Notes: a model not told the origin generated them from the sequence alone. 64,000 nt of DNA from an uncultured Microthrixaceae bacterium (GCA_964635055.1 CAZWMT010000015.1:36632-100631), one strand, 5' to 3'; counted from the first letter of the stretch, positions 16,624 through 56,899 are shown. Numbers and translations: made by a program.

Positions 16624-17867
16624 CCGAACGACCCGAGGCGGCGCCGGATGTCCCCGACGACCATGCTGCGCTCGTCGCCGAGGTGGAATCGTTCCTCCGG
16701 GCCACGCTGCCCGCCCAGTGGGTGGCGGCGGTCGACGCCGATGACCTCGAGGCGCTCGGGGTGGAGCGCCGTCGGGTCGACCCCGACGAGGTGTGGCGCG
16801 CCGTCGCCGGCCAGGGGTATGCCGTGCCGACCTGGCCGAAGGAGTACGGCGGCCTCGACCTGTCCCCCAAGGCCGCGGGCGCGGTCGCCCGGACGCTGCG
16901 GCGCTACCGGCTGCCCCGCTTCAACAACCCCGTCGGCGTCGATCTCGTCGGTCCGGCCATCCTGCGCTGGGGCACCGACGAGCAGAAGCAGCGGTTCCTC
17001 CAGCCGCTGGCGAGCTACCAGGAGATCTGGTGCCAGCTGTTCTCCGAGCCGGGCTCGGGTTCCGACCTCGCCGGGCTGTCCACCCGGGCCGTGCGTGACG
17101 GCGACACCTGGATCATCCGCGGCCAGAAGGTGTGGACCAGCCTCGGTGACATCTCCGCGCACGGCATCCTGCTGGCCCGCAGTGACCCGGACGTGCCCAA
17201 GCACAAGGGCATCACCGCCTTCCTCCTGCCGATGGCCCTGCCGGGCGTCACGGTGCGGCCGCTTCGCCAGCTGACCGGCGACGCCGAGTTCTGCGAGGTC
17301 TTCCTGGACGACGTGGAGGTCGACGACTCCCTGCGCCTCGGCCCCGTCGACGAGGGCTGGCGGGTGGCCATCTCGGTCCTGATGAACGAGCGCCAGACCT
17401 TCGCCGCCGGCGACGCCTCGCTACCCGGCACGGTGACCGGCCGCTCGGTGGCGGGGATGATCCAGCGCCACGCGCCGGTGGCCGATCCGGGGCTACGTGA
17501 GCGCCTCGTGCGGGCCTACATCGAGGACCGGGTCATCACCATGACGAAGGAGCGGGCGGCCGCCCGCCGCCGGGCCGGGCAGCCCGCGGGCCCGGAGGCG
17601 TCGATCACCAAGCTCTTCTTCAGCGAGCACACCCAGCGCCTGCAGAACCTGGCCGTCGACCTCGAGGGCCCCTCCGCCCAGGCGTGGGAGGACGGCGACC
17701 GGTGGATGCAGAACACGGCCTGGTCGTTCCTGCGCATCCGGTCGAAGACCATCGCCGGCGGGACCTCCGAGGTGCAGCGCAACATCCTCGGCGAGCGGGT
17801 CCTCGGGCTGCCGAAGGAGATCGAGGTCGACCGCGACGTCCCCTGGTCGGACGTCCCCCACTCGTGA
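16620..17867 (+). CDS. Acyl-CoA dehydrogenase
   Basis: GTGA overlap with the crotonase stop. WCQLFSEPGSGSDLAGLSTRA, GQKVWTSL, GGTSEVQRNILGERVLGLP. Confidence 0.9.
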   Translation: MTERPEAAPDVPDDHAALVAEVESFLRATLPAQWVAAVDADDLEALGVERRRVDPDEVWRAVAGQGYAVPTWPKEYGGLDLSPKAAGAVARTLRRYRLPRFNNPVGVDLVGPAILRWGTDEQKQRFLQPLASYQEIWCQLFSEPGSGSDLAGLSTRAVRDGDTWIIRGQKVWTSLGDISAHGILLARSDPDVPKHKGITAFLLPMALPGVTVRPLRQLTGDAEFCEVFLDDVEVDDSLRLGPVDEGWRVAISVLMNERQTFAAGDASLPGTVTGRSVAGMIQRHAPVADPGLRERLVRAYIEDRVITMTKERAAARRRAGQPAGPEASITKLFFSEHTQRLQNLAVDLEGPSAQAWEDGDRWMQNTAWSFLRIRSKTIAGGTSEVQRNILGERVLGLPKEIEVDRDVPWSDVPHS

Positions 17868-19450
17868 TGGCGGACGACGCCGGCCCGACGAGCCTGCTCG
17901 ACATCGCCGTGCAGCGCGCCAGTCGTGATGCGTCCGCCCCACTGCTGATCACGCTCGACGACGGTCCGCCCCACGACGTCCACGTCCTGACCTACGCCGA
18001 CGTGCTCGGCCGGGCGGAGGCGCTGGCGGTCGAGTTGGCCGCCGCCGGGGTCGTCCCGGGCGACCGGGTCGGGTGCTACCTGTCGAACTCGCCGAGCTGG
18101 GTCGTGGCCTCGCTCGCGGTCTGGATGAACGGCGCCGCGGTGGCGGCCGCGGGCACCCTGCTGCCCTCGAACGAGGCCGCCACCCTGTTCGACATGGCGG
18201 GCGTGTCGGTCGTGGTGGCGGTCGCTGATGCCCCGGGACTACCGGACCGGTTCTCGGTGCTGGCCGTCGACGAAGGTGGTGAGATCAGCGGTTCTGGCTC
18301 CCGATTCGACCGCCCTGGCGTGCAGATCGGGAGCCAGAACGGGGGATCCTTGCCCGCCGCAGAGGACGTAGCGGTCGCCATCTTCACCTCAGGCACGACC
18401 GGCCGGCCGAAGGGCATCACCCACACCCACGGTGACATCGTGGCCGCGGCGCGGCGGGTGGCCGCCGCCTACGCCCGCACCAGCGACTACCGGCCCGATC
18501 CGGCGCCGCCCGACCGCCCGCCCGGCGTGCTGTTCAACCCGTTCGGCCACATGGCCGGCTACAGCCGCCTGGCCTTCCGGATGTGGACGGGGCGGGCCCT
18601 GGTGATCGTGTCCCGCTTCAGCGTCGCGGCGACGAAGGCGCTGCTGGCCCGGTACCCGCTGGACACACTGCAGCTCACCCCGACGATGATCCACATGCTG
18701 GCCACCGCCGACGAGGACGTCGACCTCCGCTCAGTGAAGTACGTGACCTCGGGGACGGCGCCGCTCTCCATCGCCACCCGTGAGCGCTTCGAGGCTCGGT
18801 TCGCCGTCCCCGTGATGCAGGCGTACGGCATGACCGAGATCGGCGCGGTGGCCCAGGAGCGCTTCGACGACGTCGTTGCCGGCCGGCGGGGTCCCGGCTC
18901 GGTGGGCCGGCTGGCCGCGGGGGTCGAGGTCCGCTTCCGCACTCTCGACGACGGCGACGGCGACGGGGGGTTCGATCCCCACCGACCCGAGGGCGAGGGC
19001 GAGATCCTGGTGCGGACCGACGAGGCGTCGGACGAGTTCATCGGCGGCGCGCCGGTCCCCGTCGACGAGGAGGGTTGGTTCGCCACCGGTGACGTCGGCC
19101 GCCTGGAGGACGGGATCCTCTACATCACCGGCCGGGTCCAGGAGAAGATCATCGTCGGCGGGTTCAACGTGTACCCGGCCGAGGTCGAGGATGCGCTCCG
19201 CCGTTCACCGCTGGTGCTCGACGCCGTCGTGGTGGGCGTCCCCGACGACCGCCTCGGCGAGCGGCCGGTGGCCGGGGTCGTGTGGGCGGGCCCGCCCGAT
19301 CCCGACGCCCTGACCGCAGCCGCGCGCGGCGAGCTCGCCGCCTACAAGGTGCCGCGGGCCTACTTCCCTCTGGATGCCGTCCCCCTCACCCCGAGGGACA
19401 AGGTCGATCGTCGTCGGGCAGCGGCGCTCGCCGCCGAGTCCGTGCACTGA
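17867..19450 (+). CDS. AMP-dependent acyl-CoA synthetase/ligase
   Basis: TSGTTGRPKGITHTH, YGMTEIG, GWFATGDVG, and YKVPR near the C-terminus. The start overlaps the upstream stop (TGATG). Confidence 0.9.
   Translation: MADDAGPTSLLDIAVQRASRDASAPLLITLDDGPPHDVHVLTYADVLGRAEALAVELAAAGVVPGDRVGCYLSNSPSWVVASLAVWMNGAAVAAAGTLLPSNEAATLFDMAGVSVVVAVADAPGLPDRFSVLAVDEGGEISGSGSRFDRPGVQIGSQNGGSLPAAEDVAVAIFTSGTTGRPKGITHTHGDIVAAARRVAAAYARTSDYRPDPAPPDRPPGVLFNPFGHMAGYSRLAFRMWTGRALVIVSRFSVAATKALLARYPLDTLQLTPTMIHMLATADEDVDLRSVKYVTSGTAPLSIATRERFEARFAVPVMQAYGMTEIGAVAQERFDDVVAGRRGPGSVGRLAAGVEVRFRTLDDGDGDGGFDPHRPEGEGEILVRTDEASDEFIGGAPVPVDEEGWFATGDVGRLEDGILYITGRVQEKIIVGGFNVYPAEVEDALRRSPLVLDAVVVGVPDDRLGERPVAGVVWAGPPDPDALTAAARGELAAYKVPRAYFPLDAVPLTPRDKVDRRRAAALAAESVH
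18291..18340. repeat. Hairpin repeat family, copy 1 (inside the acyl-CoA synthetase CDS, in frame)
   Basis: GTTCTGGCTCCCGAT (18291-18305) pairs with ATCGGGAGCCAGAAC (18326-18340). The arms are identical to the intergenic copies at 28.5 and 33.4 kb. It encodes ...GSGSRFDRPGVQIGSQNG... Confidence 0.75.
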
Positions 19451-28437: not shown

Positions 28438-28478
28438 CCAACCGACGACGACCGGGTCCGAGTGGCCGCCGACCGACC

Positions 28479-28529
28479 GTTTCTGGCTCCCGATTCGATC
28501 GCCACCACGGTCGAATCGGGAGCCAGAAC
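28479..28529. repeat. Hairpin repeat family, copy 2 (intergenic)
   Basis: TTCTGGCTCCCGATTCGA (28481-98), loop TCGCCACCACGG, then TCGAATCGGGAGCCAGAA (28511-28). It lies 42 nt after the PrpD-1 stop and 48 nt before the LeuC-like start. Confidence 0.85.
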
Positions 28530-28576
28530 GACCGCCGTGGGCTCGGCCTCATCACGCAGGACGCAGGAGCCGCCGA

Positions 28577-29812
28577 ATGGGCATGAACGCCATCGAGAAG
28601 ATCCTGGCCAACCACTCCGAACAGGACACGGTCGCCCCCGGCGACGTGGTGATGGTCGACGTCGACGTCACCGTGCAGTTCGACTCCTCGCGAGCGGACA
28701 TCCTGAAGGTGGCGAAGCCCGACAAGCTCGTCCTGCTGCACGATCACGTCGTGCCGGCCCCCACGGTGATGGCGGCCAACCACGCGAAGAAGATGCGCGA
28801 GTTCGTCGAGCGCTTCGACATCGAGCACTACTTCCCGGTGGGCCAGCACGGCATCAGCCACGTGCTCGTCGCCGACCAGGGCTACGCCCTGCCGGGCCAG
28901 ATCCTCGTCAACGCCGACTCGCACACCTGCTCGTCGGGCGCGATGAACTGCCTCGCCCGCGGCATGGGCCCGTCCGAGATGCTCTACATCATCTGCAAGG
29001 GCCAGACCTGGTACCTGGTGGGCGAGACGACGAAGGTCGTGCTCGAAGGCGAACTGCCCGAGCGGGTCTACCCCCGTGACGTCATCCACTACATCCCGGG
29101 CCAGTACGGCGACTTCGCCGGCCGGAACCTCGAGTGGCACGGCGACGGCCTCTCCACCATCGGCATCGACGGGCGGCTGACGATGGCGACCATCTCCGCC
29201 GAGCTCTCCGCAGAGTTCTCGCTCTTCCCCTACGACGACGTCCTCGCCGAGCACCTCGAGGGCCGCAACCAGTGGGCCTTCGAGCCCGCGCACCCCGACG
29301 ACGACGCGACCTACGACACCACCATCACGGTGAACCTGTCCGAGCTCGAGCCCCAGGTGGTCCTCCCCAACAAGGTCGCCTGGAACTCCAAGCCCGCCCG
29401 GGAGGTCGCGGCCGACGGCATCAAGGTCGACCAGGCCTTCATCGGGTCGTGCGCAAACGGTCGCCTCAGCGACTTCGCCATCGCCGCCGAGATCATGGAG
29501 GGCCGCCAGGTCACACCCGGCACCCGCATGATCGTGACGCCCGGTAGCCAGGACATCCTGGGCAAGGCCATCAAGGCCGGTTACGTGTCGACCCTGATGG
29601 ACGCCGGCGCGGTCGTCACCAGCTCCACCTGCGGCGCCTGCTACGGCGGCCACATGGGCCTGCTGGCCGACGGCGAGGTGTGCATCACGGCCTCGACCCG
29701 CAACTTCCAGGGGCGGATGGGTAGCCCCAAGGCGAGCGTCTACATGGGCTCGCCCGCCACCGTGGCCGCCTCCGCCATCACCGGCGTGATCACCGATCCG
29801 AGGGACCTCTGA
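28577..29812 (+). CDS. Aconitase-fold dehydratase large subunit (LeuC/HacA-like)
   Basis: 411 aa. MNAIEKILANHS..., DSHTCSSGAMN, and a GSCANGRLSDF...CGACYGGHMG cluster-ligand region. Confidence 0.9.
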   Translation: MGMNAIEKILANHSEQDTVAPGDVVMVDVDVTVQFDSSRADILKVAKPDKLVLLHDHVVPAPTVMAANHAKKMREFVERFDIEHYFPVGQHGISHVLVADQGYALPGQILVNADSHTCSSGAMNCLARGMGPSEMLYIICKGQTWYLVGETTKVVLEGELPERVYPRDVIHYIPGQYGDFAGRNLEWHGDGLSTIGIDGRLTMATISAELSAEFSLFPYDDVLAEHLEGRNQWAFEPAHPDDDATYDTTITVNLSELEPQVVLPNKVAWNSKPAREVAADGIKVDQAFIGSCANGRLSDFAIAAEIMEGRQVTPGTRMIVTPGSQDILGKAIKAGYVSTLMDAGAVVTSSTCGACYGGHMGLLADGEVCITASTRNFQGRMGSPKASVYMGSPATVAASAITGVITDPRDL

Positions 29813-30360
29813 TGGCGGCCGCTGGTAGGACGTTCACCGGGAAGGTGTGGATCTTCGGCGACGACATCAACACCGACCTCGTCATCCCCAACTTCGCCGT
29901 GCTCTTCCCCCTCGAGGAACAGCTCGAGCACTGCTTCTCGGCCAACCGGCCCGGGTGGGTGGACGAGGTGCAGGCCGGCGACGTGCTCGTCGTGGGCCGG
30001 AACTTCGGGGTCGGCTCGGCCCGCAACATCGGGGCGGTCTTCGAGGCGCTCGGCATCGCCGGCGTCGTCGCCGAGTCGTTCAACGGTCTGGGCCTGCGCA
30101 ACTGCATCAACGCCGGCCTGCCCTCACTGCAATGCGCCGGCGTGACCGAGCTCTTCGCCGAGGGCGATGTGGCCGACGTCGACTGGACCACCGGCGTCGT
30201 GCGCAACACCACCACCGGCGCCACCGGACAGGGCGCCCCCATCCCGCCGCAGCTCCAAGACATCATCCTCGGCGGCGGCGTCGAGGGGGTGCTCCGCACC
30301 GAGGGCTACCTCGCCCCGCTGCCCGAGGTGGCCGTCACCGTCCCGGGCCGATCCGCATGA
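29812..30360 (+). CDS. Aconitase-fold dehydratase small subunit (LeuD/HacB-like)
   Basis: GKVWIFGDDINTDLVIP...GRNFGVGSARNIGA. The start overlaps the large-subunit stop. Confidence 0.85.
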   Translation: MAAAGRTFTGKVWIFGDDINTDLVIPNFAVLFPLEEQLEHCFSANRPGWVDEVQAGDVLVVGRNFGVGSARNIGAVFEALGIAGVVAESFNGLGLRNCINAGLPSLQCAGVTELFAEGDVADVDWTTGVVRNTTTGATGQGAPIPPQLQDIILGGGVEGVLRTEGYLAPLPEVAVTVPGRSA

Positions 30361-31739
30361 GCAGCTCATCCGCCGGCGCCGGCGGCCAGCGTTCCGTCAC
30401 CGAGCAGATCGCCGCCTGGGTCGTCGACGTCGACGGCGCCGACGTTCCGACCCTCGGCATCGAGCGGGTGCGCAACCTCGTGCTCGACTCGCTCGGCAAC
30501 CAGTTCGCGGGCATGGCCGTGTCCACCGGACGGCTGCTCAGTGAGTGGGTCCGGGCCCAAGGCGGCACGCCGACGTGCACCCTCACCGCCCAGGACTTCA
30601 AGACGACGCCGGCCTACGCCACGCTCGTCAACGGCGCCGCCTCGCACTCCCTCGAGAACGACGACATCGCCACCTTCTCCAGCCACCCGAACAGCCCCCT
30701 CACGGCGGCGTCGCTCGCGCTGGGAGAGAAGCTCGGCGCCTCCGGCCACGACGTCGCGGTCGCCTGGATGATCGGGTGGGAGGTCACCGCCCAGACCATG
30801 AAGGTGTGCCTCGGTCCCCGGGGCAACGAGCTCATCAACCGGGGGTGGTTCAACCAGGGCTTCCAGGAGACCCTCGGCGTCGCCGCCCTGGCCGCCCGTC
30901 TCCTCGGGCTCGACCTCGACCAGACCCGCATGGCGCTGGGCCACGCCGCCTCGGCCATGGGCGGGCTGATGAAGAACCGGGGCACCGACACCAAGGGGTT
31001 CACCGCGGGCAGTGCGGCCATGCACGGCGTCGTGGCCGCCGAACTGGCCGCCGCCGGCTTCACCGCCGACCGCGACATCCTCGACGGAGAGATCGGCGTT
31101 GCTCGGCTGCTCGGCCTCGAGCAGGGCGACCCCCAGCGCATGCTCGACGGGCTGGGGTCGTGGGACCTCGTCACCCGCGGCTCGACCATCCGGCTCTTCG
31201 CCTGCTGCGGCGCTTCGCACTGGAGCATGGACGCCCTGCAGCGGATCGTGCGGGACCAGCCGATCGACCCAGAGGACGTCGAGTCCATCGAGGTCGAGAT
31301 CCCCGAGTTCCTCACCGACATGGTGCCCATCCACGAGCCCGTCACCGGCCTCCAGGGGAAGTACAGCCTCGAGTACTGCCTCGCCACCATCGCCCTCGAC
31401 GGTCGGGCCGGGGTGTCGCAGTACACCGACGACGCCGTGCGGCGGCCGGAGGCCCAGGCGCTGATGGAGCGGGTCACCACAGTCCCCATGACCGACGGCG
31501 CGTACCAGAGCCGGGTGGTGCTGACCCTGCGCAACGGCGAGCAGCACGAGGTGACGAGCAACCGCTCCCACGGCAACCCCGCCGACCCCCTCACCCAGGA
31601 GGAGATCGTGGCCAAGTTCGACGAGTGCGCCGCTTCGGCGCCGGCCGCCCAGCGCGCCCGGGTGGTCGACCTGTGCAGCCGCCTCGAGGCCCTCGCCGAT
31701 GTCGGGGAGCTGGCCGAGGCCATCGGGGCGGTGCGCTGA
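30357..31739 (+). CDS. MmgE/PrpD family protein (paralog 2)
   Basis: ATGA overlap with the LeuD-like gene. IAAWVVDVDGADVPTLGIERVRNLVLDSLG; HGNPADPLTQEEIVAKF. Confidence 0.9.
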   Translation: MSSSSAGAGGQRSVTEQIAAWVVDVDGADVPTLGIERVRNLVLDSLGNQFAGMAVSTGRLLSEWVRAQGGTPTCTLTAQDFKTTPAYATLVNGAASHSLENDDIATFSSHPNSPLTAASLALGEKLGASGHDVAVAWMIGWEVTAQTMKVCLGPRGNELINRGWFNQGFQETLGVAALAARLLGLDLDQTRMALGHAASAMGGLMKNRGTDTKGFTAGSAAMHGVVAAELAAAGFTADRDILDGEIGVARLLGLEQGDPQRMLDGLGSWDLVTRGSTIRLFACCGASHWSMDALQRIVRDQPIDPEDVESIEVEIPEFLTDMVPIHEPVTGLQGKYSLEYCLATIALDGRAGVSQYTDDAVRRPEAQALMERVTTVPMTDGAYQSRVVLTLRNGEQHEVTSNRSHGNPADPLTQEEIVAKFDECAASAPAAQRARVVDLCSRLEALADVGELAEAIGAVR

Positions 31740-33403
31740 TGGCGTACGACCTGGTCATCCGTGGCGGTCGCATCGTCGACGGCACGGGGGCGCCGGCCTA
31801 CGACGGTGACGTCGCCATCGCCGGCGGGAAGATCGCCGCGCTGGGCGACACCGGCGATGCCGCGGCCGCCCGCACCATCGACGCCGCCGCCCACGTCGTG
31901 GCGCCCGGGTTCATCGACGCCCACACCCACTACGACGCCCAGCTCCTCTGGGACCCCTCCGCCAACCCGTCGACCGCCCACGGCATCACCACCGTCCTGC
32001 TGGGCAACTGCGGCTACACGCTGGCGCCGGTCCGGGCCGCCGACCAGGACTACCTGATGGGGCTCTTCGCCGCCGCCGAGGAGATCCCCAAGAGGGCGCT
32101 GCAGCAGTTCGCCCCGTTCGGGTGGGAGACCTTCGGCGAGTTCCTCGACTCGATGGCGGGCCGGGTGGGGATCAACGTCCTGACCCAGGTCGGTCACAGC
32201 GCCGTGCGCCGCTTCGTCATGGGTGACGCCGCCCTCGAGCGGGCCGCCACCGACGACGAGATCGCCGAGATGGTCGCCATCGTCGAGGCGGCGATGGACG
32301 CCGGCGCGGCCGGCATCAGCAGCAGCCAGGCGCCCCACCAACGCGGGGAGCTGGGCGAGCACATCCCCTCGTTCTTCGCCGAGCGGCCCGAGGTGGACGC
32401 CCTCGCGGAGGCGGTGCGCCGCAAGGGCAAGCGCCTGCTCTCGATCAACCCCGCCTCGAAGCGCAGCGGCATCACCGCGGAGGACCAGGCGCTCCTGGCC
32501 GACCTGGCCGAGCGCTCCGGCGCGGTCGTGTCGTGGAACGACTTCGGCATGGGCACACCAGACGGCGACGCGATGCTCGAGTTCATGGAGGCCGAGCTCG
32601 AGCGCGGCCACGAGATCTACGCCGTCGCCCGCTGCCAGCGCCCCGAGACCCGCTTCACCCTCAAGAAGCTGTCGGCGGTGTTCGCCACCTCCGAGCCGTG
32701 GGTCGACCTGTCCCGCATGGATCCGGACGAGAAGCTCGCCGCCCTCGCCGACCCCGAGTGGCGGGACCGTCTCGGCGAGTTCTGGGGCACGGCCAAGTTC
32801 ATGGTCAATGCCTCGGTCGAGAAGGGCGCCACCGCCGAGACCCAGGCGCTCGAGGGTCGCCTGCTCGTCGACATCGCCGAGGAGCGGGGCGTGACCCCCT
32901 CCGAGGTGATGTTCGACACCGCCATCGCCGACGGGCTCGAGACCTACTTCCGAATCGCCGGCCCGGTCGACATGGACGAGTCCCGGCTGGAGCGCATCCT
33001 CAAGAGTCCGGCCACCCTCGTGGGCATCTCCGACGGCGGCGCCCACCTCCAGACCTTCGCCGGCGGCGACTACACCTCCTACTTCCTGGCCCACTGGGTG
33101 CGAGAGAAGCGCGCCTTCACGCTGGAAGAGGGTGTGGCCGCGCTGAGCTCGCGCGTCGCCGAGTTCCTCGGGCTCACGGACCGGGGCACGCTCGAGGTCG
33201 GCCAGGCCGCCGACGTGGTGGTCTTCGACCCCGACACCGTCGAGCCCCTCGCCCTCCAGACGCTGGACGACATCCCCGGCGGCGGCACCCGCATGACCAA
33301 GAACGCCCGGGGCATCCCGTGGGTGCTGGTCAACGGCGAGCCCGTGGTCGAGTCCGGCGAGGCCACCGCCGCCGTCCCCGGCACGGTCCTCGGTCGGGAC
33401 TGA
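31739..33403 (+). CDS. N-acyl-D-amino-acid deacylase (D-aminoacylase) family amidohydrolase
   Basis: YDLVIRGGRIVDGTGAPAYDGDVAIAGGKIAALG...APGFIDAHTHYD. The start overlaps the PrpD-2 stop. Confidence 0.85.
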   Translation: MAYDLVIRGGRIVDGTGAPAYDGDVAIAGGKIAALGDTGDAAAARTIDAAAHVVAPGFIDAHTHYDAQLLWDPSANPSTAHGITTVLLGNCGYTLAPVRAADQDYLMGLFAAAEEIPKRALQQFAPFGWETFGEFLDSMAGRVGINVLTQVGHSAVRRFVMGDAALERAATDDEIAEMVAIVEAAMDAGAAGISSSQAPHQRGELGEHIPSFFAERPEVDALAEAVRRKGKRLLSINPASKRSGITAEDQALLADLAERSGAVVSWNDFGMGTPDGDAMLEFMEAELERGHEIYAVARCQRPETRFTLKKLSAVFATSEPWVDLSRMDPDEKLAALADPEWRDRLGEFWGTAKFMVNASVEKGATAETQALEGRLLVDIAEERGVTPSEVMFDTAIADGLETYFRIAGPVDMDESRLERILKSPATLVGISDGGAHLQTFAGGDYTSYFLAHWVREKRAFTLEEGVAALSSRVAEFLGLTDRGTLEVGQAADVVVFDPDTVEPLALQTLDDIPGGGTRMTKNARGIPWVLVNGEPVVESGEATAAVPGTVLGRD

Positions 33404-33437
33404 GGGCCGACCGTGACCCCGCCCGCGGTCCTCCGTC

Positions 33438-33487
33438 GTTCTGGCTCCCGTTTCGATCGCCCGAGCGGTCGAAACGGGAGCCAGAAC
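33438..33487. repeat. Hairpin repeat family, copy 3 (intergenic)
   Basis: GTTCTGGCTCCCGTTTCGA, loop TCGCCCGAGCGG, then TCGAAACGGGAGCCAGAAC. Relative to copy 2, an A-T pair in the stem is swapped to T-A on both arms. Confidence 0.85.
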
Positions 33488-33504
33488 GGATCGGTTCGAG
33501 GCTG

Positions 33505-53195: not shown

Positions 53196-54342
53196 TGCCA
53201 GTCCGAGAAGTCATCGGCGTGACTGGTGGAGGTCGTCGGCCTGTCCGATGGGAGCGCGCTCGCCGCGGCTGGCTGTGGCTGACCCACGGAGTGCGCTCGT
53301 CTGTGTGGCGCGGGTGGATCTGCTTCCCGCGAGGCGTGCTGGGGACGCCCAACTGCTTCGGTGCCAGCTCGGGGCTCGCGCTGGTCGCTGAGCGTTGCGC
53401 TTGGTCTCTGCCCTCGCCGAGCGTCGTTCCTGCTTGTGCTGTGGGTTCAGGCGGCGGTGCGGTACTCGTTGATGAGCCCGGCGCAGGTGGTGCGCGGCTC
53501 GACGTTGCGCCCGAACGGAGGCTCGATCACCTTGCAGAGGGCGTCGTCGGGGGCGTGTTGGTCGAGGGCCCGGTGAGGGCGATGACTGTTGTAGTGGTTG
53601 AGGTAATCGGTGAGGAGTCGTCGATGCTCATCAGGAAGTTCCGGGCGACCTGGGTGGTCCACGCACCCGTGGGGTTGGCGGTGACCCCGGCCAAGTGCAC
53701 CCGGCGGGATCCCACCTCGATGAAGAACAGCACGTGGAGGCGTTGGAGGGTGGCGGTGTCGACGCAGCAGAAGTCGGTGGCGATCACTCCCCGGGCTTGG
53801 GTGCGGATGAACGCCGCCCAGGTGGGACCGGTCCGGTTCGGGGTGGGGTCGATGCCGGCGTCGCGGAGGACCTTCCACACGCTCGAGGGAGCGACCTTGT
53901 GGCCGAGGCGGGACAGTTCGCCGTGGATGCGCCGGTAGCCCCAGGTGGGGTCCTCACGGGCCATGCGCAGGGCGAGCCGTCGGGTCTCGGCGTGCACCGG
54001 CGGCCGTCCCCGTCGCGGGGCGGCGGGTTGGGTCCATCGGCGGGCGACCAGGCGGCGGTGCCACCCGATCACCGTGGCCGGTTGCACGATGAGGAACACG
54101 TCGCGGAGCCGGGCCCGGCCGATGGCGGTGGACAACACCGCGAGGATGGTGCGGTCGGTCTCGGTGAAGGCCGGTCGGGCGACCTGGCGTTGCAGCACGA
54201 GGACCTGGTGGCGCAGCGCGAGGATCTCGGCGTCACGCTCGTCGCCAGCGGCGAACAGCCAACCGAGGCGGCACACGACGAGACGGGCGATCGAGGGGAC
54301 GAGGTTCGTGGCGTCGGTGACGGTAACGGGGCCGACACCGGC
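53196..54342 (-). mobile_element. Decayed IS copy 1: rve (DDE integrase-core) transposase of IS481/IS3-superfamily type, with an internal deletion
   Basis: ORFs 53527..54276 and 53447..53878 together match copy 2 (ILALRHQVLVLQRQ...WGYRRIHGEL...ATDFCCVDT...HYNSHRPHRAL...CAGLINEYRTAA). About 190 nt covering the second Asp and the Glu region are missing. There is no canonical start codon. Boundaries come from by-eye alignment with copy 2. Confidence 0.7.
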
Positions 54343-54400
54343 CCTGATACTGAGGTGTCGCGGGCCGGGGTTTGCGCTGGCGTCAGCGCCATACGCTGCG

Positions 54401-55285
54401 GTGGTGGCCTTTCTGCTGTTCGTCGACGAGTCGGGTCAGGATCAGAAGGCGTCGCCGTACGAGGTCCTCGCGGGGGTGGCCGTCAAGGATGCAGAGCTGT
54501 GGCCTCTCATCAAGGACGTGATCGCGATCGAGGAGCGGCATTTCGGAAGGCGTTACAGCTGCGGTGCGCGGGAGCTCAAGGCCAAGAAGGTCCTGAAGGT
54601 GAAGTCGTTTCGCCAGGCGGCGACCCGCGCACCGTTCGACGAGGTCGAGCGGCGAGAACTCGCGCGAGCTTGCCTCGATGACGGGGCCGCCGCGACCCCC
54701 GACATGATCGCCGCCCTCGCACAAGCGAAGATCGCCTTTGCCGCGGCGGTGCTGCAGGCCTGCGCGGAGTCGCGGGTCCGGGTGTTCGCAACGATGGTGC
54801 CCCGTGGGGCGCCGAGATCGTCGGGTGCGGGCGGCTTGCGCAAGGACTACGCGTACCTCTTCGAACGCTTCTCCTACTTCTTGGAGGACGACGCTGGCGG
54901 CGACCAGCAAGGCATCGTCGTCTTCGACGAGCTCGAGCGAGCTCGGAGTCACCTCCTGGTTGGCCAGATGCAGGAGTACTTTCTTCGCACGGGGAAGGGC
55001 AGGCGTCGGGCCGCTTGGATCATCCCTGAGCCGTTCTTCGTCCACAGCGAACTCACCACCGGGGTTCAACTCGCAGACCTCGTCGCCTACGTGGTGAGTT
55101 GGAACTTCAGGTACTCACGGACCGATCTGCCAGCGCGGCCCGAACTCGATCCGCTCGGGCGGATCGTTGCCGACATGCGGTACCTCGCTGTCCGCGAGCA
55201 GGACGGGAACCCGGAGTTCAACATCTGGAGCATCACGGCGATTGATGATCTTCGGCCCCGCGAGCAACGCCCGAACGAAAACTAG
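54401..55285 (+). CDS. DUF3800 domain protein
   Basis: GTG start. N-terminal FLLFVDESGQD is the hallmark DUF3800 start; later motifs are IVVFDELE and HSELTTGVQLADLVAY. The upstream part of listed ORF 53945.. is antisense to the IS. Confidence 0.7.
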   Translation: MVAFLLFVDESGQDQKASPYEVLAGVAVKDAELWPLIKDVIAIEERHFGRRYSCGARELKAKKVLKVKSFRQAATRAPFDEVERRELARACLDDGAAATPDMIAALAQAKIAFAAAVLQACAESRVRVFATMVPRGAPRSSGAGGLRKDYAYLFERFSYFLEDDAGGDQQGIVVFDELERARSHLLVGQMQEYFLRTGKGRRRAAWIIPEPFFVHSELTTGVQLADLVAYVVSWNFRYSRTDLPARPELDPLGRIVADMRYLAVREQDGNPEFNIWSITAIDDLRPREQRPNEN

Positions 55286-55397
55286 AAAAGGCAATGCCAA
55301 CCCAAGGGCTGGCAAAGCCTCCGAGGACAGGATACCGGGCAGCGCCGTGGTCGGGCAACAGCTCTGATCCTTGACGGGCGGCCACCCGACGGCACGG

Positions 55398-55478
55398 GTT
55401 CCCGAATTCGAGAAATCCGTTCCCACTCTACCTGAGATCGCACGGCTGGCGGGATCTCTACCGGCCCCACGCGGGCGG
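55398..55478 (+). repeat. 81-bp direct repeat, copy A
   Basis: It shares the blocks GTTCCCGAAT, AATCCGTTCCC and ACCGGCCCCACGCGGGC, colinear with 58490-58570. Identity is about 70% by eye. Confidence 0.7.
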
Positions 55479-55559
55479 GGGTTGTCGAAAAGGTGGCAGA
55501 AAAGGTGGTGCGGCGGCGACTTTCGGGCCTTGAGGTCGTGCAGGTGTCGGTCGGCCAGC

Positions 55560-56899
55560 CTGCAGGTGCCGAGAAGTCATCGGGCCACTGATTGGCGGTC
55601 GTCGGCCTGCTCCATCTCAGCGCGCTCGCCGCGGCTGGCTCTCGCTGACCTGCGGAGCTGCGTTCGCCGCGGTGGCGCGGGTGTCTCGATGCGCGTGAGG
55701 CGCGCTGAGGACGCCCAGGGGTTCGGGGCCGGCTCGGGCGTGAGCGAGTCTCAGAGCGTCGTGCTTGGTGCTCGGCGTGACCGAGGGTGGGTCCTGCGGA
55801 TGGTTCAGGCTGCGGTGCGGTACTCGTTGATGAGTCCGGCGCAGGTGGCGCGCCGCTCAACGGTCCGCCCGGTGGCCATCTCGATCACGGTGCCCTCGTC
55901 GTCGGGGCGTGTTGGCCAAGGGCCCGGTGGGGGCGGTGGCTGTTGTAGTGGTCGATGTAGTCGGTGATGAGGCGGTGGAGTTGGCGTTCGTTCCAGATGA
56001 TGGTGCGGTCGAGGAGCTCGTGACGGAGGGTCCGCACCCAGCGTTCGGCGTAGGCGTTGGCCATCGGGGCGCGGGGTGGGGTGGTGATCGGTTCGATCCC
56101 GGCGCCCTCGAAGACGGCGTCGAAGGCGGGGGAGTACTGGCCGGCGCCGTCGTGGACCACGAACCGAAACCCGTCGGGGAGGTCGATGAGGAGGTTGCGG
56201 GCGGCTTGGGTGGTCCATGCCCCGGTGGGGTTGGTCGTGATCCCGGCGAGGTGCACCCGGCGGGTGCCGATCTCGATGAAGAACAGGACGTGGAGGCGCC
56301 GGAGGGTGGCGGTGTCGACGCAGCAGAAGTCGGTGGCGATCACCGCCCGCGCCTGCGATCGGATGAACTGCGCCCAGCTGGGCCCGGTCCGGTTCGGGGT
56401 GGGGTCAATGCCGCCGTCGCGGAGGGTCTTCCACACGCTCGAGGCGGCGACGTTGTGGCCCAGGCGGGTCAGTTCTCCGTGGATGCGCCGGTAGCCCCAG
56501 GCGGGGTTCTCCCGGGCCATTCGGATGGCGAGGCGGCGGATCTCGGCGTGCACCGGCGGCCGTCCCCGTCTGGCAGCGGCGGGTTGGGTCCATCGTCGGG
56601 CGACGAGGCGGCGGTGCCAGCCGATGACGGTGGCCGGTTGCACGATCAGGAACACCTCCCGCAGACGGGCCCGGTCGACCACGGTCGACAACACCGCGAG
56701 GACGGTGCGGTCCGTCTCGGTGAAGACTGGTCGGGCGACCTGGCGTTGCAGGACGAGGACCTGGTGGCGCAGGGCGAGGATCTCGGCGTCGCGCTCGTCG
56801 CCGGCGGCGAACAGCCAGCCGAGGCGGCATAGGACCAGACGAGCGATCGACGGGACGAGGTTGATGGCGGCGGCGACGGTATCGGCGTCTCGCCACCGG
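55560..56899 (-). mobile_element. Decayed IS copy 2: rve-type transposase with a 1-nt frameshift near the C-terminus and no canonical start
   Basis: ORF 55885..56694 retains D (ATDFCCVDT), D (VVHDGAGQYSP) and E (ERWVRTLRHELLD). The tail ...DDEGTVIEMATGRTVERRATCAGLINEYRTAA is in another frame (ORF 55805..56218). The frame upstream of the listed GTG stays open (LCRLGWLFAAGDERDAEILALRHQ) but has no ATG, GTG or TTG. Confidence 0.7.

What the first reader, a model, noticed from the sequence alone, without database searches (positions are those of the whole stretch)
28479..33487. Roughly 50-bp hairpin repeat family with a compensatory stem substitution
Three copies share near-identical arms, GTTCTGGCTCCCG(A/T)TTCGA ... 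TCGAA(T/A)CGGGAGCCAGAAC. They lie at 18291-18340, 28479-28529 and 33438-33487.

Between copies 2 and 3 the only stem difference is a paired change, ATT/AAT versus TTT/AAA. This swaps an A-T pair for T-A and keeps the 18-19 bp stem intact. The 12-nt loops share TCGCC...CGG.

Covariation of this kind argues that the folded structure (RNA or single-stranded DNA) is under selection, not just the sequence. The two intergenic copies sit 35-42 nt after a stop codon (PrpD-1, D-aminoacylase) and 18-48 nt before the next start within what look like operons. No T-tract follows either copy, so they are not classic intrinsic terminators.

Possible roles are a REP/MITE-like element, an mRNA processing or stabilising hairpin, or a protein-binding site.
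Basis: seen in the sequence. Interest (0 to 1): 0.65.

Follow-up and report, generated by a model that had tools for sequence, protein, structure and literature searches.

The report
Hairpin repeats paired with a nuclease gene
The three 50-base hairpins are orphan copies of a small palindromic repeat family found only in Microthrix-like actinobacteria. In relatives, the same hairpin brackets a gene for a DNA-binding nuclease, an arrangement that resembles the known REP/RAYT systems but uses a different enzyme.

Summary
Three copies of a 48-50 nt near-perfect palindrome lie at 18291-18340, 28479-28529 and 33438-33487, where chance predicts none.

It is a real family:
- 38 further copies with identical 12-nt arms occur in 8 Microthrixaceae/Acidimicrobiales MAGs and nowhere else among 185,579 species genomes.
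- Nine of the ten inner-stem pairs show compensatory double changes. In divergent copies the arms covary too; only CTGG/CCAG is invariant.
- The copies are insertions. Orthologous gene junctions are 4-25 nt in relatives, against 139 and 101 nt here. A ribD site gives empty, filled (+75 nt, in frame) and partly deleted alleles.

The new result is a partner gene. In 8 of 8 loci examined, a ~305-aa protein gene is flanked by this hairpin on both sides (one upstream copy is a half copy, one is cut by the contig end). The protein is an AbiEi-like DNA-binding module fused to a DUF559/Vsr-type nuclease. Its stop codon usually lies inside the hairpin arm. The flanking hairpin type matches the solo copies in 3 of 4 genomes; a fifth case rests on the window and L125 being one organism.

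Best reading: a REP/RAYT-like repeat-plus-nuclease system with a different enzyme class. The window holds only orphan copies. Mobilisation by the nuclease is inferred, not shown. Any effect on the mRNA is untested, and there is no U-tract.

The parts
18291..18340 (.). Hairpin copy 1 (solo copy, inner stem decayed). It lies in frame inside the AMP-binding ligase gene and encodes GSGSRFDRPGVQIGSQN in a variable loop just before the TSGTTGRPKG motif.
   Evidence: (covariance model 66 bits). A 90%-identical orthologue carries a decayed copy at the same place; a 73% orthologue has none.
28479..28529 (.). Hairpin copy 2 (solo copy, A-type inner stem ATTCGATCG), between PrpD/MmgE-1 and the aconitase-family large subunit.
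   Evidence: 65 bits; -43 kcal/mol, z -6.9.
33438..33487 (.). Hairpin copy 3 (solo copy, A-type with a T-A swap at the 13th pair), between the Amidohydro_3 gene and the ChsH2-like/thiolase-like gene.
   Evidence: 72 bits; -52 kcal/mol, z -9.2.
28438..28576 (+). Expanded 139-nt intergenic region that carries copy 2. The orthologous PrpD-to-aconitase junction is 4-25 nt in most of about 30 relatives examined.
   Evidence: No covariance-model match in 468 kb of orthologous loci.
33404..33504 (+). Expanded 101-nt intergenic region that carries copy 3. The orthologous junction is 10-13 nt in two relatives and 61 nt, without the hairpin, in a third.
17864..19450 (+). Host gene of copy 1, an AMP-binding (acyl-CoA synthetase-like) enzyme. 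It is context, not part of the element.

Best explanation
The three hairpins are solo (orphan) copies of a family of 48-50 bp palindromic DNA elements. The family is confined to Microthrixaceae and related Acidimicrobiales.

Anatomy: invariant CTGG/CCAG near the termini, within (G)TTCTGG...CCAGAA(C); a 12-14 bp lower stem whose sequence is kept within a subfamily; and an 8-10 bp upper stem that must pair but may have any sequence.

The family has a cognate gene. A roughly 1.1-kb unit consists of: hairpin; a 15-145 nt leader whose stem buries the ribosome-binding site; a ~305-aa ORF; and a second hairpin that usually contains the ORF's last codons (Arg-Ser-Gly-x) and its stop codon. The protein is an AbiEi-type winged-helix DNA-binding module fused to a DUF559/Vsr-type PD-(D/E)XK nuclease. 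That nuclease fold is shared with the homing endonuclease I-Bth0305I.

Proposed mechanism (inferred): the AbiEi-like module recognises the lower stem of the extruded hairpin or cruciform. The nuclease then cuts at or near it. This drives copying, gene conversion or insertion of hairpins and keeps each genome's copies alike, as RAYT is thought to do for REP/REPIN sequences.

The window carries no copy of the gene. Its three hairpins were inserted into two short operon junctions and one surface-loop coding region of a catabolic gene cluster. Once transcribed they form -41 to -52 kcal/mol RNA hairpins, which may act as processing or stability sites. That would be a side effect, not the reason the family exists.

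Shown: the family, its taxonomic limits, covariation, insertion polymorphism, and the gene-hairpin association with matching types. Inferred: that the nuclease acts on the hairpins, and that it acts at the DNA level.
For: 1. Family and taxonomic range. There are 38 copies with exact arms in 8 MAGs, all Microthrixaceae/Acidimicrobiales, and none elsewhere in the genome collection. Viral contigs hold none.

2. Structure is conserved. 93.6% of cells are paired against 27-50% for slid controls, and 9 of 10 unascertained inner pairs show double changes. In divergent copies the arms covary too, leaving only CTGG/CCAG invariant.

3. The copies are insertions. Orthologous junctions are short in relatives. 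The covariance model finds no hit in 468 kb of orthologous loci. At ribD, the empty allele (L120), the filled allele (L121, net +75 nt, in frame, TGATG overlap with ribE kept) and a partly deleted allele (L123) have near-identical flanks.

4. Arms are conserved where neighbours are not. RibD tails, found by protein similarity rather than by the hairpin, keep VLAPD...SGAR(S/T) while the adjacent tail residues are scrambled.

5. Partner gene. Two copies flank it in L017. A 40%-identical homologue in L029 has a full copy and a half copy. tblastn of all DNA held at that point found these two places only. Six further homologues at 52-87% identity (L125, L130, L136, L137, L138, L139) are all flanked on both sides.

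6. Stop codon in the arm. This is seen directly in L130, L137 and L138, while in L136 the stop lies inside the palindrome but its left arm is degenerate. 59 of 109 full-length homologues end in R-[ST]-G-x, which is CGT TCT GGC nnn TGA.

7. Types match. The hairpin type flanking the gene equals the solo type of the same genome in CAZYPY (B), JBGAOY (D) and JAENWR (E). It also does in the probable window organism (A). It does not in CAVVIF.

8. Protein identity. Pfam DUF559 scores 26.7 bits against a cut-off of 20.6. PADLOC AbiEi gives E 1.6e-21 over residues 3-182. The AF2 model has pLDDT 92. Foldseek matches AbiEi 6y8q (probability 1.0, TM 0.68) and the I-Bth0305I catalytic domain 3r3p (probability 1.0, TM 0.77). 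D237, E248, H255, D260 and D264 are invariant or nearly so.

9. Leader. A stem GCTTCCCC...GGGGAAGC occludes the Shine-Dalgarno sequence. From my own knowledge, this resembles the tight translational control of IS200-type elements.

10. Assemblies. Most homologues sit on 1.0-1.5 kb contigs that end in the hairpins.
Against: - No biochemical or transposition data exist, and no clear target-site duplication was found.
- The filled ribD allele carries 28 nt beyond the hairpin that are unexplained. The window's intergenic regions are also much larger than the hairpin.
- Copy number is low: 2-10 exact-arm copies per MAG, perhaps two to three times more with variants. This is far below REP/REPIN populations.
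- Copy 1 replaces rather than simply extends a variable loop.
- In CAVVIF the gene-flanking hairpins differ in type from the two exact-arm solo copies.
- The gene lies downstream of sucA in four distant lineages. It may therefore be a stably inherited host gene whose hairpins serve as its operator and terminator.
- That the window's organism owns such a gene rests only on shared sequencing samples and a matching hairpin type.
- Whole genomes could not be surveyed.
Confidence: 0.6

Rival explanations
1. The hairpins are host-selected RNA elements. Transcribed at gene ends and operon junctions, they block 3' exonucleases, serve as RNase III-type processing sites, or act as factor-dependent (often bidirectional) terminators, as proposed for the mycobacterial TRIT motif. 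A dsRNA-binding factor would explain the conserved lower stem.
For: - Location bias: about 20 copies lie between co-directional genes, about 11 between convergent genes, and only 1 between divergent genes. Most lie 4-65 nt after a stop codon.
- The RNA hairpins are extremely stable.
- A flank asymmetry follows the direction of transcription 9:1.
- Copies 2 and 3 have a U-G-compatible mismatch on the sense strand.
- TRIT offers a precedent for sequence-conserved palindromes at actinobacterial gene termini.
Against: - Several copies are translated: the RibD tail in at least 5 lineages, RecD, and the AMP ligase.
- Wobble-compatible mismatches show no significant strand bias (8:5).
- There is no U-tract. 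Mycobacterial RNA polymerase needs one at intrinsic terminators (title and abstract of PMC3993855).
- Relatives do without the hairpin at the same junctions.
- A location bias towards gene ends is also what tolerated insertions produce.
- This reading does not explain why the hairpin brackets one particular nuclease gene in 8 of 8 loci.
Confidence: 0.2
2. The palindromes are double-stranded operator sites of the AbiEi-like protein, which acts as a transcription factor. The copies flanking its gene autoregulate it, and solo copies are regulon or decoy sites. There is no mobility.
For: - AbiEi antitoxins autoregulate by binding inverted repeats in their promoters (abstract of PMC7319586).
- The N-terminal 180-200 residues match AbiEi in sequence and fold.
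- One hairpin always lies upstream of the gene.
Against: - A dsDNA operator needs two half-sites, not a complementary spacer. Yet 9 of 10 inner pairs change by compensation.
- Copies sit after genes rather than in promoter regions; only 1 of 41 lies between divergent genes.
- Some copies lie inside coding sequences.
- Empty, filled and partly deleted alleles exist.
- The protein keeps an apparently intact nuclease active site.
Confidence: 0.1
3. It is an ordinary member of a known class: a REP/REPIN mobilised by a RAYT (Y1/HUH transposase), or a MITE derived from a DDE-transposase insertion sequence.
For: Small, dispersed, mostly extragenic palindromes with subfamilies behave like REPs. The window contains transposase remnants (HTH_32 at 53527-54276, rve_3 at 55885-56553).
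Against: - There is no unpaired GTAG or CGTC tag. The stem is 21-24 bp and perfect, against 8-9 bp in the CGTC families described there.
- The gene bracketed by the repeats is not a Y1 transposase.
- No inverted repeats related to the hairpin termini flank the window's transposase remnants.
- No solitary arms occur in the window.
- No target-site duplication is evident.
Confidence: 0.05

Closest known systems
REP/REPIN sequences with their RAYT transposase (REPtrons)
   Same: Short palindromic repeats dispersed mostly after genes. Lineage-specific subfamilies that are uniform within a genome. A dedicated gene bracketed by the same repeats. Occasional insertions into coding regions. Apparent vertical inheritance of the gene at a fixed locus (downstream of sucA in four lineages).
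   Different: The enzyme is an AbiEi-like winged helix plus a DUF559/Vsr-type PD-(D/E)XK nuclease, not an IS200/IS605-type Y1 HUH transposase. There is no GTAG or CGTC tag. The stem is a perfect 21-24 bp within a fixed 48-49 nt length. Copy numbers are units to tens, not hundreds. The downstream hairpin overlaps the gene's stop codon. The host is Actinomycetota; the word Actinobacteria does not occur in the main text of the REP survey read here.
TRIT, the 'Tuberculosis Rho-independent terminator' motif of Mycobacterium (RNIE paper, PMC3152330)
   Same: An actinobacterial, clade-restricted palindromic hairpin conserved in both sequence and structure. It sits tightly against gene ends and often overlaps the end of the coding sequence. 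It works in both orientations and lacks a canonical U-tract. Its authors also inferred an unknown binding factor.
   Different: TRIT has 147 copies in M. tuberculosis, no partner gene has been reported, and it was found only in Mycobacterium. I could not compare the sequences because the TRIT model was not available here.
Rickettsia palindromic elements (RPE) and intragenic REPs
   Same: Palindromic repeats that insert in frame into protein-coding genes and are translated without stop codons, adding peptide segments.
   Different: Unrelated sequence and host. RPE and CGTC repeats have no known dedicated enzyme.
EDxHD/Vsr-like homing endonucleases (I-Bth0305I) and DUF559 proteins
   Same: The partner's C-terminal 100 residues share this fold and the conserved acidic and histidine residues.
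   Different: I-Bth0305I is encoded inside a group I intron. Here the gene is free-standing, fused to an AbiEi module and bracketed by hairpins.
AbiE type IV toxin-antitoxin systems (AbiEi antitoxin, e.g. Rv2827c)
   Same: The N-terminal 180-200 residues match AbiEi in sequence and fold. AbiEi proteins bind inverted repeats.
   Different: No AbiEii (DUF1814) toxin gene lies beside it in any locus examined. A nuclease domain is fused instead.

Membership tests
REP/REPIN-RAYT | Unpaired GTAG (or CGTC) tetranucleotide tag at one end of a short imperfect palindrome | tested here: not met
   The termini are (C)GTTCTGG...CCAGAAC(G) and TT pairs with AA. No GTAG or CGTC tag appears in 41 aligned copies. 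Family definition taken from PMC3733652.
REP/REPIN-RAYT | A RAYT (IS200/IS605-like Y1 HUH transposase) gene flanked by the repeats | tested here: not met
   The gene flanked by the repeats in 8 of 8 loci is AbiEi-like + DUF559. Whole genomes could not be scanned for a RAYT located elsewhere.
REP/REPIN-RAYT | Dispersed, mostly extragenic copies with subfamilies uniform within a genome | tested here: met
   However, only 2-10 exact-arm copies were found per MAG.
MITE (non-autonomous derivative of an insertion sequence) | Terminal inverted repeats shared with an autonomous insertion sequence, and target-site duplications | tested here: not met
   The empty versus filled ribD alleles show no clear duplication. 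No solitary arms occur in the window. The window's transposase remnants have unrelated ends. In the 1.1-kb unit each end carries a whole palindrome, not a single arm.
Intrinsic (Rho-independent) terminator | G+C-rich hairpin immediately followed by a U-tract | tested here: not met
   The 3' flanks are G/C-rich. The terminator scan does not flag any copy.
TRIT (Mycobacterium) | Match to the TRIT covariance model or consensus | not testable with these tools
   The model is not in Rfam as searched (one search found no family). Only the description in PMC3152330 was available.
Integron attC site | R''/R' core sites (RYYYAAC ... GTTRRRY), extrahelical bases, and cassette context with an integrase | tested here: not met
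   The order of GTT and AAC is reversed (GTTCTGG at the 5' end, CCAGAAC at the 3' end) and CTG is not RRR. Stems are perfect with no bulges. The neighbouring genes are core metabolic genes. The attC definition is from my own knowledge.
Any Rfam RNA family | Score at or above the gathering threshold | tested here: not met
   No match in the whole window.
DUF559 / Vsr-like PD-(D/E)XK nuclease (partner protein) | Pfam PF04480 above its cut-off, Vsr/EDxHD fold, and conserved catalytic acidic and histidine residues | tested here: met
   26.7 bits against a cut-off of 20.6. 3hrl by sequence, E 0.0035. 3r3p and 3hrl by fold. D237, E248, H255, D260 and D264 conserved. Activity was not tested.
AbiE type IV toxin-antitoxin system (partner protein) | AbiEi antitoxin encoded next to an AbiEii (DUF1814) nucleotidyltransferase toxin | tested here: not met
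   The AbiEi module is present, but no DUF1814 gene neighbours it in L130, L136, L137, L138 or L139.

The most novel reading that the evidence does not exclude
This would be a previously undescribed class of repeat-plus-enzyme system in Actinomycetota. An AbiEi-winged-helix / Vsr-type (homing-endonuclease-like) nuclease recognises the sequence-specific base of a 48-bp DNA hairpin or cruciform. It propagates, converts and homogenises these hairpins across the chromosome. Functionally this is an analogue of REPIN-RAYT that evolved independently from a different nuclease fold, with the enzyme's own stop codon built into its recognition hairpin. It could also explain other sequence-conserved gene-end palindromes in actinobacteria, such as TRIT.
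Probability: 0.4. Interest if true: 0.85.

Novelty: new variant of a known kind. Interest (0 to 1): 0.72.

Why it matters
Small palindromic repeats with a dedicated enzyme are so far understood through one model, REP/REPIN with RAYT. That model comes mainly from Proteobacteria.

- **A second system.** A clade-restricted system built on a different nuclease would show that this lifestyle evolved more than once. The enzyme comes with a defined 48-bp substrate, so it can be tested directly.
- **A function for unannotated proteins.** It would suggest a role for this family of AbiEi-DUF559 fusion proteins (253 homologues found here), which several sources annotate only as 'very-short-patch-repair endonuclease' or 'AbiEi antitoxin domain protein'.
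- **Practical effects on MAGs.** The hairpins break metagenome assemblies. They extend or interrupt ORFs, as in the RibD tails, RecD and the AMP ligase. They also add very stable hairpins inside operons of Microthrix-like wastewater bacteria, and all of this affects annotation of their MAGs.

Tried and rejected
- Rfam at gathering thresholds: no match.
- Extended pairing beyond the 48-nt core: the flanks are C-rich 5' and G-rich 3' but pair no more than their composition predicts.
- Strand bias of G-U-compatible mismatches as a test of RNA-level selection: 8 sense versus 5 antisense, not informative.
- attC, CRISPR repeat, dif/Xer site, riboswitch or leader: rejected on anatomy and context.
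- A clean empty site for copy 1: AMP-ligase orthologues have a variable loop of similar length, so there is no simple insertion boundary.
- Close relatives of the PrpD cluster to get empty sites for copies 2 and 3: the nearest usable loci were at most 83% identical, and the one 96% hit (L115) looks chimeric. Only junction lengths could be compared.
- Insertion-sequence remnants in the window as a possible partner: their ends are unrelated.
- Viral contigs: neither the hairpin nor the protein was found.
- NCBIfam gave no name for the protein.
- The listing of cluster members gave no accession linking P0244 to the window's assembly.
It was repeated with P0244 as the first row.
- Literature searches for DUF559 or Vsr-like proteins linked to palindromic repeats found nothing relevant in the library. 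One search failed on a term-length rule.

Full report
**1. The observation**

The full pattern GGCTCCCGNTTCGA-N-TCGAANCGGGAGCC matches copies 2 and 3, while 100 shuffles gave no match. The 12-nt arm TTCTGGCTCCCG occurs exactly six times, as three inverted pairs. The three palindromes rank 2nd to 4th among the window's inverted repeats.

Folding shows longer stems than reported. There are 20-24 bp closed by a 4-6 nt loop. RNA energies are -41 to -52 kcal/mol (z -4.6 to -9.2) and DNA energies -21 to -33 kcal/mol.

The window is 70.8% G+C. Codon-position G+C analysis and Pfam give the context:
- Copy 2 lies between a PrpD/MmgE gene and an aconitase-family large subunit.
- Copy 3 lies between an Amidohydro_3 gene and a ChsH2-like/thiolase-like gene. 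Both are in one co-directional gene array.
- Copy 1 lies inside an AMP-binding ligase gene, in frame, and encodes GSGSRFDRPGVQIGSQN.

No T-run follows any copy, the terminator scan flags none, and Rfam has no match.

**2. A clade-restricted family with strong covariation**

I scanned one genome for each of 185,579 species for the two outer arms, leaving 15-35 free bases between them. This returned 38 copies in 37 loci. All come from 8 MAGs labelled Microthrixaceae, Acidimicrobiales or Acidimicrobiia, with 2-10 copies per genome on different contigs. Viral contigs hold none.

Total length is fixed at 48 nt, or 49 nt in one genome. The 24 bases left free by the search form an 8-10 bp upper stem. 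It falls into discrete types that remain complementary:
- A: ATTCGAYCGC
- B: ATTTCGGTGCC
- C: ATCCTCCGG
- D: ATTGGACCGC
- E: GGATCTCTACC

On the 41-copy alignment, 93.6% of cells pair, against 27-50% when partners are slid by 1-3 columns. Nine of the ten unascertained pairs show changes on both sides, with up to four pair types.

A covariance model built from the alignment found eight more divergent copies in the same loci. With the copies found later, these show that the arms covary as well. Examples are GGCTCCCG/CGGGAGCC, GGCACCGG/CCGGTGCC, GGCGCCCG/CGGGCGCC, GGCCTCCG/CGGAGGCC and GGGTACTG/CAGTACCC. TT/AA can also swap to AA/TT. Only CTGG/CCAG is invariant.

Selection, or some mechanism, for intrastrand pairing is therefore beyond doubt. 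Whether it acts on RNA or DNA is a separate question. Mismatches that would be G-U on one strand only show no significant bias towards the sense strand (8 versus 5).

**3. The copies are insertions that come and go**

- *Context.* About 20 copies lie between co-directional genes, about 11 between convergent genes, and one between divergent genes. Several run into or lie within coding sequence: the RibD C-terminus, the ArgC end, RecD, and the AMP ligase.
- *The window's junctions.* In 73 metagenomic loci encoding relatives of the window's PrpD, about 50 of them at 63-83% identity (468 kb), the model finds nothing. There the PrpD-to-aconitase junction is 4-25 nt in most loci, against 139 nt in the window. 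The amidohydrolase-to-ChsH2 junction is 10-13 nt in two relatives and 61 nt, without the hairpin, in a third, against 101 nt in the window.
- *The ribD site.* RibD homologues found by protein similarity fall into short forms (…LELAPLREEAD) and long forms (…LELAP-ARPTPS-VLAPYSTAVAVESGARS-ERR-REEAD). The DNA shows three alleles:
  - empty allele (L120): …GCCCCC|CTC|CGAGAGG…
  - filled allele (L121/L122): CTC is replaced by 78 nt, made of 18 C-rich nt, the 50-nt hairpin and 10 nt. The net gain is 75 nt, or 25 codons, and the TGATG overlap with ribE is kept.
  - partly deleted allele (L123): only the end of the right arm remains.
- *Arm conservation.* In these tails the arm-encoded residues VLAPD…SGAR(S/T) persist while the adjacent residues are scrambled. 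This is an unbiased sign that the arms are conserved or continually renewed.
- *Replacement at one site.* At this single orthologous site the upper stem is type A in L121, B in L002/L012 and D in L028, each matching its own genome's type. This points to replacement or gene conversion rather than slow drift.
- *Copy 1.* It is present but decayed in a 90%-identical orthologue and absent from a 73% one. The loop it occupies has a similar length in orthologues without it, so it is not a simple insertion.
- *Assemblies.* Independent short-read assemblies of the window's organism break at the hairpins.

**4. A partner gene**

In L017 two full copies lie 972 nt apart. Between them is a gene my G+C-based caller had missed. 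A 40%-identical, intact 305-aa homologue in L029 sits 11 nt from a full copy and has a half copy just upstream. tblastn against all DNA held at that point found these two places only.

The protein has two modules:
- Pfam DUF559 (26.7 bits, cut-off 20.6), with a weaker AbiEi_4 match.
- PADLOC AbiEi models cover residues 3-182 at E 1.6e-21.
- An AlphaFold2 model (pLDDT 92, pTM 0.85) matches the AbiEi antitoxin 6y8q and Rv2827c in its N-terminal 200 residues. Its C-terminal 100 residues match the catalytic domain of the homing endonuclease I-Bth0305I (3r3p) and the DUF559 protein 3hrl.
- The published PD-(D/E)XK census places Vsr, DUF559 and I-Bth0305I in one clade.
- Acidic and histidine residues in the nuclease domain (D237, E248, H255, D260, D264 in A4) are invariant or nearly so across 31 homologues.

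A database search returned 253 homologues. Most are on contigs of only 1.0-1.5 kb. I fetched six more homologues at 52-87% identity: L125-129, L130-135, L136, L137, L138 and L139. In every one the gene is bracketed by the hairpin.
- The upstream copy ends 15-100 nt before the ATG.
- The downstream copy follows within 13 nt of the stop or contains it.
- In L130, L137 and L138 the last codons and TGA are the left arm itself (…CGT TCT GGC ACC TGA = R-S-G-T-stop).
- 59 of 109 full-length homologues end in R-[ST]-G-x.

The hairpin type around the gene equals the solo type of the same genome in CAZYPY (B), JBGAOY (D) and JAENWR (E). It also does for the homologue found in the same sequencing samples as the window's own genes (A type, like the window's copies). 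It does not in CAVVIF.

A conserved leader stem, GCTTCCCC…GGGGAAGC, buries the ribosome-binding site. In L137 and L139 an extra hairpin copy sits in its loop. In four distant lineages the gene lies just downstream of sucA, and elsewhere in three others. No AbiEii toxin gene neighbours it. Neither the protein nor the hairpin is found in viral contigs.

**5. Interpretation**

The anatomy is a sequence-specific lower stem, a free but paired upper stem and a fixed length. The family shows clade restriction, uniformity within genomes and insertion polymorphism. A dedicated nuclease gene is bracketed by cognate copies. Together these parallel the REP/REPIN-RAYT relationship.

The defining REP/RAYT features are nevertheless not met. 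There is no GTAG or CGTC tag and no Y1 transposase, and the stem is much longer and perfect. I therefore describe it as working like a REPtron without being a member of that family.

The most likely mechanism is inferred. The AbiEi-type module reads the lower stem of an extruded hairpin or cruciform, and the Vsr-type nuclease nicks or cuts there. Repair, template switching or gene conversion then spreads and homogenises copies. Solo copies could also arise from recombination between the two copies flanking a gene unit.

The window contains only solo copies and no partner gene. Its transposase remnants at 53.5-56.6 kb are unrelated.

The main rival is a host-selected RNA hairpin of the TRIT kind. 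It fits the location bias and the 9:1 flank asymmetry with transcription. It does not explain translated copies, the absence of the hairpin at the same junctions in relatives, or the bracketed nuclease gene. RNA-level effects may still exist as a by-product.

A pure operator model, based on AbiEi proteins binding inverted repeats, does not explain the compensatory changes in the spacer.

**6. Open points**

- What the extra 28 nt in the filled ribD allele are, and why the window's intergenic regions are so large.
- The 16-18 nt tandem duplications that abut hairpin ends in L036 and L037 and include the terminal TTC or CAGAA.
- Whether the gene is mobile or a fixed host gene.
- The true copy number per genome.
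- Whether the window's organism owns the gene. This is inferred from shared samples and matching type only; one search gave no accessions.

**7. Novelty**

Within the searchable library I found no paper linking DUF559, Vsr-like or AbiEi-fusion proteins to palindromic repeat families. The word Actinobacteria does not occur in the main text of the broad REP survey I read. I rate this a new variant of a known kind, namely a palindromic repeat with a dedicated enzyme. There is a substantial chance that it is an independently evolved system with a new enzyme class.

Noticed in passing
L125:1-104, L130:1910-2003, L136:1906-2003, L138:1428-1503, L137:1358-1503, L139:1397-1503: A conserved leader stem, GCTTCCCC...GGGGAAGC, lies immediately upstream of the AbiEi-DUF559 ORF and pairs with its Shine-Dalgarno sequence. 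In L137 and L139 an additional hairpin copy is nested in the loop of this stem.
   Followed up: partly
L036:4690-4800 and L037:7075-7115: Tandem duplications of 16-18 nt abut the hairpin ends and include the hairpin's terminal bases. Examples are TTCACCCCAAACCCCTCG twice before TTCTGG, and GCCGGGATCAGTCAGAA twice after CCAGAA. They may be footprints of staggered cuts or of slippage at the element boundary.
   Followed up: partly
window 53527-56553: Insertion-sequence remnants on the minus strand: HTH_32 at 53527-54276 and an rve_3 integrase core at 55885-56553, with a DUF3800 gene between them. Their ends are unrelated to the hairpin.
   Followed up: partly
window 18950-19010 (AMP-ligase residues ~362-372): The window's AMP ligase and its 90% relative carry a second lineage-specific insert of 9-10 residues (GDGDGGFDPH). 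It is absent from all 26 other orthologues aligned (columns 389-399).
   Followed up: no
L057:2298-2433 (also L056): In a soil-metagenome relative, the same PrpD-to-aconitase junction holds a different element of about 65 nt, duplicated in tandem (GGGAGGCGCCAGCGCAGCGACCGGAGGGGAGCGGAGCGCCTAAGCCGACCCA...). This junction appears to tolerate small insertions repeatedly.
   Followed up: no
L013:1236-1353: Two variant-arm hairpins (TTCTGGGTACTG...CAGTACCCAGAA) lie head to tail, 6 nt apart. Their inner stems are decayed.
   Followed up: no
L038, L040, L042, L043 (Logan assemblies of the window's organism): Contigs begin or end at or within about 50 nt of the hairpin copies. L038 starts inside copy 1, L040 ends at copy 3, and L042 and L043 end just after the PrpD stop codon, before copy 2. 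The repeats fragment short-read assemblies.
   Followed up: yes
window 1-48000: The region is a paralogue-rich catabolic cluster for CoA esters. It includes ChsH2-like OB-fold/Zn-ribbon plus thiolase-like proteins, acyl-CoA dehydrogenases, family III CoA-transferases, TauD dioxygenases, SnoaL-like proteins, short-chain dehydrogenases, two PrpD/MmgE genes with an aconitase-like pair, amidohydrolases, a Rieske protein and a P450.
   Followed up: partly
L017, L029, L137, L139: In four lineages whose proteins are only 40-58% identical to the L029 protein, the AbiEi-DUF559 gene sits immediately downstream of sucA (2-oxoglutarate dehydrogenase E1). In L029 and L137 an M20 peptidase gene follows. This suggests long-term vertical inheritance at one locus.
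   Followed up: partly
L115: This 1,044-nt low-coverage metagenome contig matches 53 residues of the window's PrpD at 96% identity, then continues into unrelated sequence. It is probably chimeric and could not serve as an empty site.
   Followed up: yes
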